Positions 51,310 to 61,270 of a DNA stretch of 64,000 nt are shown here, piece after piece (position 1 is the stretch's first letter; the number at the start of each line of letters is the position of its first letter). Location of the stretch: assembly GCF_009914755.1 (NCBI RefSeq), contig NC_060927.1, one strand, 5' to 3'. The stretch is from the human T2T-CHM13v2.0 reference genome, Homo sapiens. The position numbers and the translations under genes were made by a program. Under the pieces are notes generated by a model. The model had not been told where the DNA came from. It worked only from the letters and a program-made list of their open reading frames with translations, and made no database searches.

Positions 51310-52455
51310 TCTATGTGCATTCTCTCCCTAGGTGATCTCATCCAATTTTATTGCTTTACATAATATCTATATCCGAATAATGCCCAAATATACATCTTTC
51401 TTCTAGACCTCTTCACTGAACTCCAGATTCATGTAACTGACTATTTACTTGGCATCTCCACTTGGTGGTCTCATAGCAACTCAGACTCGATGTGCCCCAA
51501 ATGGAACACATGATTTTAGTGCTGAGCTCTTCTCCCCACCCCTTTCTTGCCCTAAACTGCAAGCCTGCTCCTCCCTTGTCTTACCCAGAATGCCACCACT
51601 ATTTATTAGTTGCATAAGCTACCTGAAAAACATTTTGAATGTACTTTCAGAATGTTTTTAGAATCCATTCATCTTTTTCCATCTCCAATGTGATGGTATT
51701 GTCTTTCACCAGACATTTCTTAGAGAGGTAAATCAGCTATCAGATATCTTTTTAAAATCTTTCAAAAGGTTTTCATTGCAATTAGAATCAATTCTAAAAG
51801 ACTTACCATGGTTAATGTTTAGGGTCCAACATTAACTGGTATCAACTGATCTCTCTAACCTCATTTTTTCCTTGTGCCATTTCCCCTCACTACCCAGCAC
51901 CTAGCCACATTGGCCTTCTTTCGGTTCCTACAACAAGCAGACCTCTTTCCCTAGAGTCTTCAGTGTGCTTTCTCTTCTACTTGGGACGTTCTGTGAAGGT
52001 TCTCAGTTCCTTCTTAGCTTTAGAACTCAGCTATTGGAGCAGTCTTCCCTGACCACCATCTCAAAGCCAGATCTCTGCTATCTTTCTCTTTCATAGCAAC
52101 TTGTTTATCACCCTCATTGTAATTATTGCAAACTGTAATCACTTAATTATTTATGTACACTTTTGAAATTAGATGAGATTTTTAAAAGGTGTCTGATAGA
52201 TGATTTACCTCTTTAAGAAATGTCTGGTGAAAGGCAATACTATTGTATATTATAGCAACCTGTTTATCACCCTTATTGTAATTATTGCAATCTGTAATCA
52301 CTTAATTATTGATATACACTTTTGTTTGACTCTCCCACTAGACAACAAGCTCCGTGAAGACAGCATTGTGTGCCTGATTCACTGTGGGATCACCAGTGCC
52401 TATTATAATGGCTGGCACATAATGGGCACTCAGTCAATGTTTGACAAATACGTGA
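51310..52455. mobile_element. L2 fragment containing a local duplication/inversion
   Basis: 'ctctccctaggtgatctcatcc..tgaactccagattc..ccactagacaacaagctccgtgaagacag..ggcacataatgggcactcag'. Confidence 0.75.
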
Positions 52456-55565: not shown

Positions 55566-55604
55566 CTTGAGCCTGGTGCCTGGTAGCTGGCAGCCAAAGG
55601 GCAA
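55566..55604 (-). CDS. CLRN1: CLRN1 alternative 39-nt cassette exon (adds VALWLPATRHQAQ)
   Basis: TTCTTTTTCTCCTGAAG acceptor (AG 55606-55605); AAG|GTACT donor at 55565; phase 1/1, frame preserving; matches a recalled longer isoform. Confidence 0.8.
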
Positions 55605-56680: not shown

Positions 56681-56860
56681 CTGAAATGAAGCTCAAAAGG
56701 TACAGCCCTAGGGGACCATGCAGAGTTTCAAAAGGTTTTCCAAAAGCATTGTACATGAAGAAGGCTGTCCCCACCATGGTTAACACAATAAGGATGGCAG
56801 AGAAGAGAATGACATTGACGTGGATGCTCACTGGGATTGCTTTGAGCAAATCTGGAAAAA
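56681..56860 (-). CDS. CLRN1: CLRN1 middle coding exon (FPDLLKAIPVSIHVNVILFSAILIVLTMVGTAFFMYNAFGKPFETLHGPLGLYLLSFIS-G)
   Basis: ORF 56613..56915; CAG acceptor at 56862-56861; CAG|GTAAGT donor at 56680; 180 nt, phase 1/1. Confidence 0.98.
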
Positions 56861-57599
56861 CTGAAGATAAGACAAAACTAGGGTTAGAAGAAGTTTCATT
56901 AGCAGTAGTCTGCAAGTATAATTTTAAAAATCAAATCTCTCTTTTTTAATTTCAAACATCACTAAAATCCTTCTGATGAATACATTCTCACTTACTAACT
57001 TATAAGGGGTTTACAAAAAGGTTTAAAGATAGGATCATTTTATAGAGTTTACCAGTAAAAATTAGCAAAGAGGAGATTTGAGGTAATTTATTTTCTGTGC
57101 TTGGTCATATGTAATGATTTAAACAAATAAGTTCTGGCTTTATAACCCAAATCTGTACATTTTAATAACCAAGCCTTTAATGACCTTTCTCGGTAGTCAT
57201 TTAAAAAAATTTATCTTAACTTGCAATGATATTTTAAGTTTGGAGATATCTGGGGATATCTGGGGAGTTCAAATATTAGGAAGTTTTCATATTTACTTTG
57301 TTACAAAAAAATTGTTTCTAGTCTACACCAAGATTAAAGAATGGAGATATTTTCAGTCAACTTCAATATTTTAATGTAGCACAAAGCTGTGGGAAAATAA
57401 TTTCTGGTACTACGGGAAATATTTCAATGTAGAAAACACGCCAAATCTATTTCTAGATTTTGTGTTCAGGGCAAGTTTTTCTTGTTTGCAGAGAAAGCGA
57501 AACCCTACATTTTAGGGCTTCTTTCATCTGGTGAGGCATCAGCATGCTTGGCATCAGCAAATCTGGCAGGACCAATCTGGGGAAGTTTAATTCTGTTCA

Positions 57600-57785
57600 T
57601 TTTAGTTCCCCAAACATGTATCAAGTGCTTAAGTTATTCACTGAGCACCTACTATGTGCCAGGCATTATTCTAGGTGTTGGAAGTAGAGCCATAAAACAA
57701 GATGGACAAGATTCCTGTTGTCTCACAGAGCTTATAACCTAATGGGAGAAGACAGACCATTAGAAAGCAAACAAACAAATAAACG
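57600..57785. mobile_element. L2 3'-end fragment; continues at about 59105-59650 and 59870-60480
   Basis: 'ttattcactgagcacctactatgtgccaggcattattctagg..cacagagcttataacctaatgggagaagacagac'. Confidence 0.85.
57653..57738 (-). other. CLRN1: CLRN1 L2-derived poison exon (G-YKLCETTGILSILFYGSTSNT*)
   Basis: TCTGTCTTCTCCCATTAG acceptor (AG 57740-57739); in-frame TAG at 57673-57671; donor probably ATA|GTAGGT at 57652 (uncertain); matches a recalled 30-aa isoform. Confidence 0.65.
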
Positions 57786-58257
57786 TGATAGCTTATCTCC
57801 AAAAATGGCCACAATCAATGCTTTTCCCCCTTTTACGCATGTGTCACTTCTCATTTAAGTGACACTTCTCATTTTTCTCCAATGCCTTTGAACTTGGATT
57901 GGCCTTCGATTGCTTTGACCTCCTGAATATGGCAGCAGAAGTACATTGTGCCAGTTCCAGGCCTGTTTGATAAGAGAACCAGCAGTCTCTGCTTTTTTTT
58001 CTTTTGGAAGCTTGAGTTGCCAAGAAGTCCAGGCTACTCTTCTGGAGAGAAAGGCTGCCTGGAGGAGCACTGAGGCACCAGACACACAAGGGAAGAAGCT
58101 GTCCTGGATGTCAAGCCCAGAAAAGATGACTCCAACCCAGTTGCTATGTAACTGCAACAGTTAGGAGAGACCCTATCAAGAACTGTCCGGGTGAATTAGT
58201 AAATTTTTGTTTTAAGCCCCTGAACTTTATAGGAGAGCTGTTATCCAGCGGTATCAA
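57786..58257. mobile_element. MaLR LTR (MLT1-like) inserted in the L2
   Basis: 'ccaaaaatggccac..ttgctttgacc..ggcagcagaagt..tgtgccagttccaggcct..tttgttttaagccc'. Confidence 0.75.
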
Positions 58258-59098
58258 TGACAGAAGTGTAGAAATTTTAGGCAGACGGGGCAGGTCCCTG
58301 GAAAAACCTCACTTTTGAGCTGAAAAGCCTGAAACCTGCAGCCCAAAGTGAGAACTTCCATCCCTGTGTGCCCGCTCTTTCCCAATTGGTTCTTTATGAA
58401 TAATGTCTTTTTACCAATAGAATGTTGCCTTTTCCAAAATTATGTATGGCCTGCCCCACCACCTATCCTCTGCCTATAAATACCCCAGACTCAGCCAGTA
58501 GAGAGGAGAAGTGGCTGGACATCAGAGAGAGGAAACTTGACTTCAGAGATGGTGGCTGGACATTGGAGAGATGTGACTTGACTTCAGGGGAGAGTGACCT
58601 GCCCTTCCCATTCCCTTTTCAGCTTCTCTCTCTGCTGAGAGCCACTTTCATTGCTAATTCTCTGCATTCACCATCCTTCAGTTCATCTGTGTGACCCCAT
58701 TCTTCTTGGGCACCAAACAAGAATTCAGGATGCACAAATTGTGGGTACCCAAAAAGACTGTCACCCTGGCCCTTTGCCCTCACTGGCAGAGGGCAGCCAC
58801 CCTACACGATGAAGCAAAGGGCCCACTGAGCTGACAACACACTGCTGTCCACAGATGGCAGAGCTACGAGAGCATTGTAACACACCCTCTGGGGCCCTGG
58901 GGTTGCAGGCACCCCTACCTGGTTGCTGCTGCAGGGCCTGCATGGAGTTTACTCCTCACAGCACTAAAGCAGCCAGCTGGTTCCTGCACTCGTTCACTCG
59001 TGTGCTCCCTCCTGCAAGAGGTTGAGCAGGGCAGGCTGAGTAAATGGGGTACCCCTGTTGGGAGTCCCATGAAGGGGTCAAGAAAATAGCCTGCATCA
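58258..59098 (+). mobile_element. solo ERV1-class LTR (LTR1/LTR27/LTR28/MER52-type group), antisense to CLRN1
   Basis: TG...CA termini; CCAAT boxes near 58382 and 58414; TATAAA at 58475-58480; internal 'gtggctggacat..gacttcag' repeats. Confidence 0.8.
58919..59090 (-). CDS. CLRN1: CLRN1 LTR-derived alternative exon: 172-nt frameshifting cassette; also carries the ATG (58943) of the MQALQQQP-V isoform
   Basis: CAG acceptor at 59092-59091; CAG|GTAGG donor at 58918; ATG..CCA G joins the next exon in frame as MQALQQQPVFPDLL; matches recalled alternative isoforms. Confidence 0.8.
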
Positions 59099-59674
59099 AC
59101 AACAAGATAGTTTCAGATAGTGATACATATGATGGAGAAATAAAATAGGGTAATGGGATTTTGAGTGATCTCTGAGTGGATGGGCATGGTCAGGAAAGTG
59201 AAACGAGCTGACACCTGAATGTTGAGAAGGAAATCACCCTTTAAAGATCTACAGAAAGAACTTTCCAGGGAAAAGAAGCACAACTGAGGCAGGAATGAGC
59301 CAGTGCAGTGGAGCCTGGTGAATGGTGGGGAGGCAGAAGTGGGATTATTGTGCTGGGAACAGATTGTTGTACCCACTGGATCCTGGCCTGGTGACCATGG
59401 CGAGGAGTTGGCTTTTTATTCTAAATTTATTAGGAAGCCACTAGAGAATTTTAAGTAGGAGAGGAACACAGTCTCCTTCATAATATTAAAAGATCATTCT
59501 GAATGCTGAATAGTGATCACAAGGGGGTGGGGAAGAACAAATGTCCAGAGATCTAAGGGAGGCTATTTTCAGAGGGGAGAGATGGGGGCTGGCCTACGGT
59601 GGGAGAGGTTGTCAGATTTGGGATACATTTTGGAGATGGAAGATAGGACTTGTTTAAAAAAAAAAAAGAATCCA

Positions 59675-60258: not shown

Positions 60259-60789
60259 GTATTTAAACCCATTGGAACAGACATCCCAAGGAGATGAACC
60301 CAGGGAGAAGCTGTAGTTCAAGAGAGAAGCCCTGGGGCTCCCCCATGTCTACAAGCACAGAAGAGGAGAAAACCCAACCAAGAAGACTGGGAAAAGAGTG
60401 ATTTGTGAATTAGGAGCAGACCCATGAGTGAGACAGCAGGGAAGCAAATGGAAAAAAATGTTTCAAGGAGGAGTAAGTAGTCATCTGTACAAATGCATGC
60501 CTCATGGCCACAACACTCTACTCCTGACCACATGCTGGAAGGGGGCCAGGAGAGAAAGTTTCATTGGGTCAGAACAAGCCCTTTGCCACCGCTGGATGTA
60601 ATTAACTAACTACATATGTACATACATGAAATAAGCTTAGTGCTATCCAATAGGGAGCATCCTCTTCGTAAATACAGAGGTGTTTGGATCCTGATGGTGT
60701 TTACCAGTGTCCTCACTCAGGAGTCATGGCCAGGTCATTTGACTGCTGATGTTTAGTTGCACTACATTTCCTTTATCTTCTCACAATCA

Positions 60790-61270
60790 GAAAAATGCAC
60801 ATTAAAACTTTGAGATACCATTTTCAATACATCATGTTTACAAAGATGAAAGCATTTAGCAATATCCTGTGTTAGCTAGGGTATGGGGAAATGGGGACCC
60901 TTGTGCATTTTTCTTGGGAGTGTAAATTGTTATAACCTCCTTTGAGGCAGCTGGGCAATCTATAAAGCATTAAAATGCACATACCCTTTAGCTCAGCAAT
61001 TTAACTTTCAGGATTTTATCCTATGAATATTTTTGCACATGAATCCACTAAAGTATTACAAGGATATTCATTGCAGCATTTCTTGATAATAAGAGGTTGG
61101 AAATAACGTACATGTTTAGCAGTAGCATATTCATACAATGGAATATTAGTCAATGATTACAAAGAATGAAGCAAATCTATAACAACATGTATGGAATTAT
61201 TCATCAAAATGTGATGTGAGGTGAAAAAACAAGCCAAATAAATGAAGACATATGTGCACCACTCTGCTAT
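60790..61270 (+). mobile_element. old L1M ORF2-end/3' fragment
   Basis: 'ttgggagtgtaaattg..cagcaatttaactttcagga..ggatattcattgcagcatt..catacaatggaatatt'. Confidence 0.7.

What the first reader, a model, noticed from the sequence alone, without database searches (positions are those of the whole stretch)
57600..59110. Three-layer transposon nest (L2 > MLT1 > ERV1 LTR) forms a splicing module for CLRN1
Seen: an L2 is split by an MLT1-like LTR, whose end is in turn split by an approximately 840-bp ERV1-type solo LTR. Read antisense, the last ~180 bp of this LTR give an acceptor (59092), an ATG (58943) and a donor (58918). Used as a first exon it yields in-frame MQALQQQP-VFPDLL, a clarin-1 lacking the N-terminal part. 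Used as a 172-nt cassette it frameshifts. The L2 supplies a second acceptor (57740) for a stop-containing exon. Established (recalled): these peptides correspond to annotated minor CLRN1 isoforms. Inference: most CLRN1 isoform diversity here is transposon-derived and probably primate-restricted, possibly tuning dosage through NMD, which could matter for human-mouse differences.
Basis: partly seen in the sequence, partly recalled or inferred. Interest (0 to 1): 0.7.

Follow-up and report, generated by a model that had tools for sequence, protein, structure and literature searches.

The report
Old retroviral LTR supplies CLRN1 exon
A roughly 850-base leftover end of an ancient retrovirus, lying backwards inside an intron of the deaf-blindness gene CLRN1 between two still older repeats, supplies the splice sites of two known minor transcripts, and the neighbouring old LINE-2 piece supplies the acceptor of a published disease-causing false exon; this is an ordinary kind of event.

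Summary
The remnant is real. Window 58250-59098 (+ strand, 849 bp) is a solo LTR of a dispersed family: 1339 first-look candidates in the genome, and the 40 that were scored are 72-84% identical. The family makes 4-bp target duplications and has ordered TATAAA and AGTAAA signals. Those features point to class I (ERV1-type). No repeat library was available, so the family name stays open. The copy's own branch length is about 0.11 substitutions per site. Monkey proteins (Cercocebus, Cebus) carry the LTR-coded peptide. Together these place the insertion before the Old World/New World monkey split and probably within primates, about 45-65 million years ago.

The acceptor AG is at 59092-59091, the ATG at 58943 and the donor GT at 58918-58917. 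The cassette is 172 nt and shifts the frame. The 120-aa isoform begins MQALQQQP-VFPDLL.

The L2 acceptor at 57740 is absent from RefSeq. By arithmetic it is the acceptor of the published 230-bp pseudoexon (c.254-649T>G, c.254-643G>T) and of an 86-nt natural exon.

Some claims are not supported. The MLT1 name and its "split end" could not be verified. The alternative first exon starts in L2, not in the LTR. The cassette's stop lies 47 nt before the last junction, so NMD is doubtful. Two other alternative exons show no repeat origin.

The parts
59099..59480 (-). Upstream piece of an old L2-like element (name and strand by recall). It holds the RefSeq start (59335) of the alternative first exon, and the pyrimidine tract and branch region of the cassette's acceptor.
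   Evidence: Aligns over q7-382 to the uninterrupted relative L074 t60-485, colinear with the downstream piece. Only 1 weak match in the direct genome search.
58250..59098 (+). Solo LTR of a class I (ERV1-type) endogenous retrovirus family, antisense to CLRN1. Family name not determined. The 5' boundary is blurred (58250-58257).
   Evidence: 1339 candidates. Ends TGATAG...CTGCATCA. Family 4-bp target duplications are exact in 7 of 20 copies. TATAAA kept in 14 of 20 and AGTAAA in 17 of 20. No second copy in the window.
57797..58249 (.). Old interspersed repeat, MaLR/MLT1-like by recall only.
   Evidence: 2 weak genome matches. 63.6% identity over 297 aligned positions to L078 and 64.8% over 253 to L077.
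57593..57796 (-). Downstream (3'-end) piece of the same L2-like element. It supplies the acceptor AG 57740-57739 and a GTAGGT donor at 57652.
   Evidence: 28 other genome matches, mostly on the core 57632-57689. Colinear with the upstream piece in L074.
58919..59090 (-). 172-nt cassette exon ('exon 0b') of NM_001256819.2, wholly inside the LTR (LTR positions about 670-841, antisense).
   Evidence: In 20 paralogs the acceptor AG is kept in 19 and the donor GT in 17.
58919..59335 (-). Alternative first exon of NM_052995.2 (120-aa isoform, ATG at 58943). Its 5' 237 nt are L2-like and its 3' 180 nt are LTR.
57653..57738 (-). 86-nt exon with an in-frame stop, with both splice sites in the L2-like piece. 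Inferred to be the natural minor pseudo-exon seen in wild-type minigenes.
   Evidence: sites and stop. PMC11593374, section 3.3 read. PMC7452116, passages. The mapping rests on size and is inferred.
57509..57738 (-). 230-nt pseudoexon activated by the published variants c.254-649T>G (window 57509) and c.254-643G>T (window 57503). About 145 nt are L2-like and 85 nt are unassigned intron.
   Evidence: Coordinate arithmetic from the exon start at 56860: 230 nt and 22 new residues before the stop. This matches PMC5431179 passages (230 bp, 106 residues of which 22 are unrelated).

Best explanation
An ERV1-type retrovirus integrated on the + strand, antisense to CLRN1, in the stem of the anthropoid or early primate lineage. 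It landed at the border between an older MaLR-like repeat and the L2 element which that repeat had already split. The provirus later collapsed to a solo LTR. Read antisense, the last ~180 nt of this LTR family carry an AG in the conserved terminal CTGCATCA and a CAG|GT some 172 nt further on. With the pyrimidine tract lent by the adjoining L2, that stretch is recognised at low level as an exon. Skipped, it gives normal clarin-1. Included as a cassette, it shifts the frame (isoform e). When transcription starts in the L2 piece at 59335, the same donor joins an LTR-borne ATG in frame to the 180-nt exon (isoform c, 120 aa, lacking the N-terminal part). These are most likely low-level, neutrally drifting by-products rather than a tuned module. 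Separately, the L2 3' end offers a strong acceptor at 57740 and a modest donor at 57652. That makes a natural 86-nt stop-bearing exon. It is also the substrate on which two published deep-intronic variants build a 230-nt pathogenic pseudoexon. Shown here: the element, its bounds, orientation and family behaviour; the splice sites; the reading frames; and the monkey orthologs. Inferred: the order of events, the age in years, the low usage, and the absence of function.
For: The element is a real repeat with defined bounds. The family makes 4-bp duplications: exact in 7 of 20 copies and at least 3 of 4 bases in 14 of 20, against 3 of 380 and 38 of 380 in mismatched controls; 5-bp and 6-bp duplications are exact in 0 of 20. 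Orientation follows from the purine tract and the TATAAA-then-AGTAAA order. The copy is solo: no second copy in the window and both flanks are other repeats.

The latent splice sites are family-wide: AG in 19 of 20 paralogs, GT in 17 of 20, ATG in 8 of 20. The window's GTAGGG donor form occurs in only 2 of 20, while GTGGGG occurs in 9 of 20.

Age. The star-tree branch of the window copy is 0.115 (0.110 without CpG), against a family mean of 0.135 (0.124). The paired LTRs on C12 differ by 0.256. The Old World monkey protein P0007 matches the window LTR at 86.4% over 59 aa, against at most 66% for 20 paralogs. The New World monkey protein P0006 starts MQALQWHP.

Neutral drift. The frame is open for 59 codons in Cercocebus but carries a TGA in human that 0 of 20 paralogs share. 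86% amino-acid identity is about what about 6-7% neutral DNA divergence would give (recalled figure).

Usage. Only the main isoform was seen as protein in human retina (PMC7003947, passages). The pseudoexon link rests.
Against: The window copy shows no target duplication (1 of 4 bases) and has a degenerate 5' end. A clean insert-then-recombine history is therefore not proven, and a local deletion or rearrangement is possible.

I saw no expression data for the LTR exon. RefSeq curates both transcripts, which means cDNA support exists. The key isoform paper (Vastinsalo 2011, PMC3039507) and the original cloning paper (PMC1226054) are not held.

Short clarin-1 isoforms with other first exons are predicted in pig, donkey, two hamsters and a lizard. 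That could mean an N-truncated isoform is wanted, and so that the human one is functional.

The Cebus evidence is 8 residues from an automatic annotation. The 20 copies compared are the best-scoring ones, not a random sample.
Confidence: 0.72

Rival explanations
1. The nest is a selected, primate-specific splicing module that tunes clarin-1 dosage: inclusion of the LTR cassette or the L2 exon sends transcripts to nonsense-mediated decay, and this contributes to human-mouse differences in the retinal phenotype.
For: Both exons introduce early stops. The LTR exon is shared by Old World and probably New World monkeys, so it has persisted for more than 40 million years. The L2 exon's stop lies 198 nt before the last junction. 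Clrn1 knockout mice lack a retinal phenotype (PMC2719914, title and abstract).
Against: The cassette's stop is 47 nt before the last junction, inside the recalled 50-55 nt NMD-immune zone, and RefSeq lists it as an mRNA rather than an NMD candidate. The cassette's acceptor has a purine-broken pyrimidine tract. The coding frame is not conserved between human and mangabey. Splice-site persistence is expected anyway, since 17-19 of 20 unselected paralogs keep the sites. No expression or NMD data were seen.
Confidence: 0.1
2. The 120-aa isoform c is a functional N-terminally truncated clarin-1, and the L2/LTR first exon is a recruited alternative promoter plus start codon.
For: RefSeq-curated mRNA. 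Cebus has a 120-aa protein of the same architecture, and Cercocebus has a 171-aa one sharing the N-terminal exon and its junction. Unrelated alternative first exons joined to the same 180-nt exon are predicted in pig, donkey, two hamsters and Pogona, which hints at recurrent demand for such a form.
Against: The start codon differs between species: an upstream ATG gives a 59-aa extension in mangabey, while a stop and a downstream ATG apply in human. Only a single band consistent with the main isoform was detected in human retina (PMC7003947). No promoter or CAGE feature is annotated at 59335. The other species' models are automatic predictions.
Confidence: 0.12
3. The LTR and the MaLR-like piece did not arrive as two nested insertions. 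They arrived as one composite block or through a rearrangement, so the 'three-layer nest' is really a two-step history.
For: The LTR abuts the L2 directly and has no target duplication of its own. The two L2 edges share a 12-nt similar stretch, with 9 of 12 bases alike by my reading. That is longer than an LTR-type duplication.
Against: There is no poly(A) at either end of the block, so L1-mediated insertion is unlikely. The MaLR-like piece is about twice as diverged from its relatives (~64% identity) as the LTR is from its own (72-84%). That fits separate arrivals far apart in time. The 12-nt similarity may be chance.
Confidence: 0.06

Closest known systems
Exonization of LTR elements in human genes (recalled: Piriyapongsa and colleagues 2007; not looked up here)
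   Same: An intronic solo LTR supplies both the acceptor and the donor of an alternatively spliced, low-inclusion exon. It adds lineage-specific coding or frame-shifting sequence to a conserved gene.
   Different: Here the same LTR stretch serves two ways, as a cassette and as the 3' part of an alternative first exon. The 3' splice site is a composite: the AG comes from the LTR terminus, and the pyrimidine tract comes from the adjoining L2.
Antisense Alu exonization (recalled: Sorek, Lev-Maor, Ast)
   Same: A repeat family carries near-consensus splice signals on its antisense strand in most copies, so single copies in introns become exons with few or no changes. Here AG is in 19 of 20 paralogs and GT in 17 of 20.
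   Different: The element is an LTR, not a SINE. There are about a thousand copies rather than a million. The element is older, at about 0.11 substitutions per site.
Pathogenic pseudoexon activation inside LINE-2 or MIR sequence (Meili 2009 and Vorechovsky 2010, seen only as entries and one passage in PMC8819188)
   Same: An old L2 3' end provides a ready acceptor and pyrimidine tract, and a single intronic base change completes the exon. This matches CLRN1 c.254-649T>G and c.254-643G>T.
   Different: In CLRN1 the new donor lies about 85 nt beyond the L2 end. The L2 origin of the acceptor is not mentioned in the passages and section of the three CLRN1 papers that I read, and a term search of PMC11593374 for transpos, LINE and repeat found no mention of it.
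Named ERV1 LTR families of Repbase/Dfam (MER4-, MER50-, LTR8/9-like groups; recalled names only)
   Same: Length near 850 bp, TG...CA ends, 4-bp duplications, about a thousand copies, 11-13% divergence per copy.
   Different: No library comparison was possible, so no name is assigned. My by-eye guess of a proline primer site was not borne out: Leu-CAA scored 9, Pro and Thr 8, against a mean of 5.1.

Membership tests
Class I (ERV1-type) endogenous retrovirus LTR | Dispersed multi-copy element of LTR size with TG...CA ends | tested here: met
   1339 candidates; the 40 scored are 72-84% identical. All 20 aligned copies share TGATAG-like starts and CTGCATCA-like ends. The window copy keeps the CA end, but its start is degenerate.
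Class I (ERV1-type) endogenous retrovirus LTR | 4-bp target-site duplication (the class I value is recalled; 5 bp for ERVL/MaLR, 6 bp for ERVK) | tested here: met
   Family: exact 4 bp in 7 of 20 copies and at least 3 of 4 bases in 14 of 20. Controls: 3 of 380 and 38 of 380. Exact 5 or 6 bp in 0 of 20. The window copy itself matches in only 1 of 4 bases, so for it this is not met.
Class I (ERV1-type) endogenous retrovirus LTR | U3-R-U5 order of promoter and poly(A) signals on one strand | tested here: met
   TATAAA at LTR position 226 (kept in 14 of 20 copies). AGTAAA at position 790 (17 of 20, plus 1 AATAAA), on the + strand.
Class I (ERV1-type) endogenous retrovirus LTR | Paired copies bounding a provirus, with a purine tract and a tRNA primer site on the inner sides | tested here: inconclusive
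   One same-strand pair 8.4 kb apart on C12. A purine tract directly precedes the 3' LTR. The primer-side flank scored Leu-CAA 9 and Pro/Thr 8 against 48 tRNA ends (mean 5.1, sd 1.5), so no clear assignment. The interior was not read, by rule.
Class I (ERV1-type) endogenous retrovirus LTR | Match to a named LTR consensus in a repeat library | not testable with these tools
   No Dfam, Repbase or RepeatMasker here. Four paper searches linking CLRN1/USH3A with LTR, ERV1, transposable or exonization turned up no name; I judged the hits from titles and abstracts only. Supplements are closed.
Solo LTR | No proviral interior adjoining, and no partner LTR nearby | tested here: met
   The flanks are the MaLR-like piece and the L2-like piece. 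There is no second copy in the 64-kb window. The window ends 4.9 kb beyond the LTR, but the adjoining sequence is not proviral.
MaLR MLT1 LTR | Similarity to the named family, and a 5-bp duplication | tested here: inconclusive
   Only 2 relatives at about 64% identity over 250-300 nt. A 5-bp duplication can be read in two ways by eye. The name is recalled.
LINE-2 3' end | Old dispersed repeat, colinear over far more than SINE length with uninterrupted copies | tested here: met
   28 other matches to 57590-57796. The two pieces align to L074 over t60-666, about 600 bp, with the insert absent. The name L2 is recalled and no library was available.
Transposon-derived (exonized) exon | Annotated exon with both splice sites inside the element | tested here: met
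   Exon 58919-59090 lies inside LTR 58250-59098. The AG is 7 nt from the LTR end, and the pyrimidine tract lies outside, in L2.
NMD-coupled poison exon | Stop codon more than 50-55 nt upstream of the last exon junction (recalled rule) | tested here: not met
   Cassette: the stop ends at 56728, 47 nt before the junction at 56681. The 86-nt L2 exon does meet the rule, with its stop about 198 nt before the last junction.
NMD-coupled poison exon | Transcript level rises when NMD is blocked; regulated inclusion | not testable with these tools

The most novel reading that the evidence does not exclude
N-terminally truncated clarin-1 isoforms, made from lineage-specific first exons spliced to the conserved 180-nt exon, have arisen repeatedly in amniotes (primates through L2 plus LTR; pig, donkey, hamsters and a lizard through unrelated sequence). 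They would then be a selected feature of the gene. In anthropoids the LTR would have supplied the start codon and donor of that isoform, and with the L2 poison exon it would set a primate-specific clarin-1 output in retina. That could bear on why mouse models lack the retinal disease.
Probability: 0.07. Interest if true: 0.6.

Novelty: new member of a known kind. Interest (0 to 1): 0.3.

Why it matters
It explains where two RefSeq minor isoforms of a disease gene come from and roughly how old they are. The exon that some papers call '0b', and that Joensuu's original cloning called exon 1 (recalled), is a piece of a retroviral LTR that mouse should lack. This matters when isoforms are chosen for gene-replacement vectors or compared between species. 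It also shows that the acceptor used by two published pathogenic deep-intronic variants is an L2-borne site that is already spliced at low level in the wild type. The stretch 57509-57740 is therefore a place to look for further non-coding variants. Beyond that it is a routine case of repeat exonization.

Tried and rejected
Soft-mask rows as a repeat test: rejected. They cover only 20% of chr3 and miss this LTR entirely.

Direct genome searches with the two flanks gave almost nothing. The L2 continuity was shown instead by fetching relatives of the downstream piece and aligning the two window pieces to them separately.

Naming the family. Four paper searches turned up nothing linking CLRN1/USH3A to an LTR, ERV1 or exonized repeat; for I judged the nine hits from titles and abstracts only. 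The HERV-W paper that mentions CLRN1 refers to CLRN1-AS1 intron 1, a different element. Primer-site typing against 48 tRNA genes was inconclusive. I had guessed proline by eye, and that guess is withdrawn.

Cross-species dating from DNA was impossible, because no primate or mouse genomes are available. Protein searches served instead. The third search, limited to the LTR-coded 59 residues, found only the query's own cluster. In addition, 28, 42 and 3 candidates of untold source were left out by the tool, so absence in lemurs or tarsier means little.

Isoform e orthologs (185 aa) could not be sought. No single exon is long enough to reach that length class, and joined sequence may not be typed. 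I checked whether the open frame around the cassette was long enough to serve as a query (65 aa). It was not, and I went no further.

Vastinsalo 2011 (PMC3039507) and Joensuu 2001 (PMC1226054) are not held. Supplements that may hold isoform tables or repeat annotation were not opened because they are closed.

PMC11593374 gives 86 bp in its text and 83 bp in a figure legend for the natural pseudo-exon. My 86-nt model matches the text.
Full report
WHAT IS THERE. CLRN1 runs on the minus strand. RefSeq lists five transcripts in the window. NM_174878.3 is the main form; it skips everything between the first exon (beyond the window) and the 180-nt exon 56681-56860. NM_001256819.2 includes a 172-nt cassette, 58919-59090. 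NM_052995.2 starts at 59335, with first exon 58919-59335 and its CDS beginning at 58943. NR_046380.3 and NM_001195794.1 use 60626-60776 and/or 55566-55604. No RefSeq exon lies near 57740. The assembly's soft-mask rows cover 20% of chr3 and nothing between 56362 and 59645, so they are uninformative.

THE LTR IS REAL. Window 58270-59110 finds 1339 first-look candidates in the same genome. The 40 that were scored gave 60 match rows beyond the window's own, at 72-84% identity, and most full-length ones cover query positions 1 to about 829. I fetched 20 near-full-length copies with 60-nt flanks and aligned them with the window copy. The family starts TGATAG... and ends ...CTGCATCA. The window copy ends cleanly at 59098. 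The length is 849 bp, against 835-998 bp in the others. The longer copies carry a duplication of about 100 bp, visible as overlapping query ranges.

CLASS. Exact 4-bp target duplications flank 7 of 20 copies, and at least 3 of 4 bases match in 14 of 20. Pairing the left flank of one copy with the right flank of another gives 3 of 380 and 38 of 380. Exact 5-bp or 6-bp duplications occur in 0 of 20. Four base pairs is the class I (ERV1) value by recall. On the + strand, TATAAA sits at LTR position 226 (kept in 14 of 20 copies) and AGTAAA at position 790 (17 of 20, plus one AATAAA). Two same-strand copies 8.4 kb apart on chromosome 12 look like the ends of a provirus, because a purine tract directly precedes the start of one of them. 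This fixes LTR sense as the window + strand. The flank on the primer side did not identify a tRNA: Leu-CAA scored 9 and Pro and Thr 8, with a mean of 5.1 and sd of 1.5 over 48 tRNA genes. I did not read the interior. The family name cannot be given here. That needs a repeat library applied to the LTR, not inner genes. Nothing linking CLRN1 to an LTR turned up in print.

The window copy is solo. Both flanks are other repeats and there is no second copy in the window. Its own flanks do not show a duplication (1 of 4 bases).

AGE. I made no consensus. I fitted a star tree to all pairwise Kimura distances. The window copy's branch is 0.115 (0.110 with CpG positions masked), the family mean is 0.135 (0.124), and the mean pairwise distance is 0.269. 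The two LTRs of the chromosome 12 pair differ by 0.256, or 0.128 each. That agrees with the family mean, so subfamily structure inflates the figures little. At recalled rates of 2.2, 1.3 and 1.0 x 10^-9 per site per year, the window branch gives 52, 89 and 115 million years. Set against the recalled ~0.17 substitutions per site on the human lineage since the mouse split and ~0.055-0.06 since the New World monkey split, it falls in between.

Protein searches give an independent lower bound. A 120-aa Cebus imitator clarin-1 (P0006) begins MQALQWHP-VFPDLL. A 171-aa Cercocebus atys isoform X2 (P0007) has a 59-residue N-terminus that matches the antisense window LTR at 86.4% over its full length, against 66% or less for the 20 human paralogs. 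The LTR was therefore in place before the Old World/New World monkey split (about 43 million years ago, recalled). My bracket is about 45-65 million years. Presence in tarsier or lemurs is open. Among the 35 hits, 12 other proteins show the VFPDLL-like exon start. Nine of them carry an N-terminus unrelated to clarin-1 exon 1, and none resembles MQALQQQP. A search limited to the LTR-coded residues found only P0007's own cluster. The tool also left out candidates of untold source, so absence means little.

THE OLDER LAYERS. The piece 57590-57796 has 28 other matches, mostly on a 58-nt core. I fetched four of the longer relatives and aligned the two window pieces to them separately. In L074 the upstream piece (59480-59099) covers t60-485 and the downstream piece covers t463-666. 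Both pieces also aligned in the same order in L073, L075 and L076, with wider overlap in L073 and low scores for the upstream piece; the stricter BLAST matched the upstream piece only in L074. One element of at least ~600 bp was thus split by the 1.3-kb insert. That length excludes a MIR. The name L2 and its sense on the minus strand are recalled. The piece 57797-58249 matches two loci at 63.6% and 64.8% identity over 297 and 253 aligned positions. It is therefore an old repeat, roughly twice as diverged as the LTR, and 'MLT1' is a recalled resemblance only. The LTR abuts the L2 piece directly.

THE SPLICING. The cassette's acceptor reads tgaaactatcttgttgttgatgcag|G. The AG and seven bases before it are the antisense LTR terminus, while the weak, purine-broken pyrimidine tract is L2. 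The donor is CAG|gtagggg. In 20 paralogs the AG is kept in 19 and the GT in 17. The GTAGGG form occurs in 2 and GTGGGG in 9. The ATG is present in 8, with GTG in 9. The family is thus pre-equipped on its antisense strand, as antisense Alu is.

The joined exons of NM_052995.2 give 120 aa starting MQALQQQPVFPDLL. The cassette is 172 nt and open in one frame. It throws the 180-nt exon out of frame, to a stop ending at 56728, 47 nt before the last junction. That is inside the recalled 50-55 nt zone in which NMD is not expected, and RefSeq files the transcript as coding.

The alternative first exon starts at 59335, in the L2 piece. The LTR contributes only its last 180 nt, and its own promoter signals face the other way.

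In mangabey an upstream ATG, orthologous to 59096-59094, opens the whole exon. Human has a TGA at 58958-58956 that none of the 20 paralogs shares. The peptide is therefore drifting.

THE L2 ACCEPTOR AND DISEASE. AG at 57740-57739 follows ctaatggtctgtcttctcccattag. An 86-nt exon, 57738-57653, ends at a GTAGGT donor inside the conserved L2 core and contains a stop after 22 new residues. Counting from the exon start at 56860, c.254-649 is window 57509 and c.254-643 is window 57503. An exon 57738-57509 is 230 nt long. Khan 2017 (PMC5431179, passages) reports a 230-bp aberrant exon and a 106-residue product with 22 unrelated residues, which matches 84 + 22. PMC11593374 (section 3.3 read) reports the same 230-bp pseudo-exon for both variants, plus an 86-bp one in the wild type; a figure legend says 83 bp. 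PMC7452116 (passages) says an alternative donor inside the aberrant exon corresponds to a non-coding Ensembl transcript. The match to my coordinates is by size and reading frame, not by seeing the authors' sequence. The passages and section of these three papers that I read do not mention a repeat origin, and a term search of PMC11593374 for such words found none bearing on it.

WHAT IS NOT TRANSPOSON-DERIVED. Exon 1b (55566-55604, with flanks) has no other match in the genome. Exon 60626-60776 has one weak match, and it covers only the 137 nt just upstream of the exon. 'Most isoform diversity' is therefore too strong, given this tool's limited reach for old repeats.

FUNCTION. In human retina only a band consistent with the main isoform was detected (PMC7003947, passages). 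Mouse has a rarely included exon in the same intron (PMC2719914, passages), and its homology is untested. I rate the by-product reading at about 0.7, a functional truncated isoform at about 0.1, and an NMD dosage module at about 0.1.

VERDICT. This is a real, old, class I solo LTR, anthropoid or older but probably not pre-primate, exonized antisense in CLRN1. It is a new, unremarkable member of a well-known kind, with a useful link to the known pathogenic pseudoexon.

Noticed in passing
window 58956-58958 and 59094-59096: In Cercocebus atys the LTR-derived first exon is open from an upstream ATG and gives a 59-residue extension (171-aa isoform X2). Human has a TGA in that frame which 0 of 20 paralogous LTR copies share, so the human protein starts at the downstream ATG.
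   Followed up: partly
proteins P0008, P0011, P0012, P0013, P0015: Pig, donkey, two hamsters and a lizard have predicted short clarin-1 isoforms. Their unrelated first exons splice to the same conserved exon start (V/I-FPDL). This may be recurrent N-terminal truncation, or annotation noise.
   Followed up: no
LTR copies L017-L020 and rows with overlapping query ranges 673-829: Some copies of the LTR family carry a tandem duplication of about 100 bp in the region homologous to the CLRN1 cassette exon. The window copy has a single unit.
   Followed up: no
window 60776-60912: The only other genomic match of the 60626-60776 exon region (C12:16132687-16132825, 72% identity) covers the 137 nt just upstream and stops at the exon's first base. 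An old repeat may lend that exon its acceptor.
   Followed up: no
window 59099-59112 and 57786-57800: The two L2 edges flanking the 1.3-kb insert share a 12-nt similar stretch (9 of 12 bases by eye). That is longer than an LTR-type duplication. It may be chance or a trace of how the insert arrived.
   Followed up: partly
PMC11593374: The paper gives the natural pseudo-exon as 86 bp in the text and 83 bp in a figure legend.
   Followed up: no
chr3 annotation file: The masked_repeat rows cover only 20% of chr3 and about 10% of the window. They miss an 849-bp LTR with over a thousand relatives, so they cannot be used as a repeat test.
   Followed up: yes
window 52331-52438: There is a second weak L2-like 3'-end fragment elsewhere in the same intron, on the opposite strand (64% identity over 115 aligned positions).
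   Followed up: no
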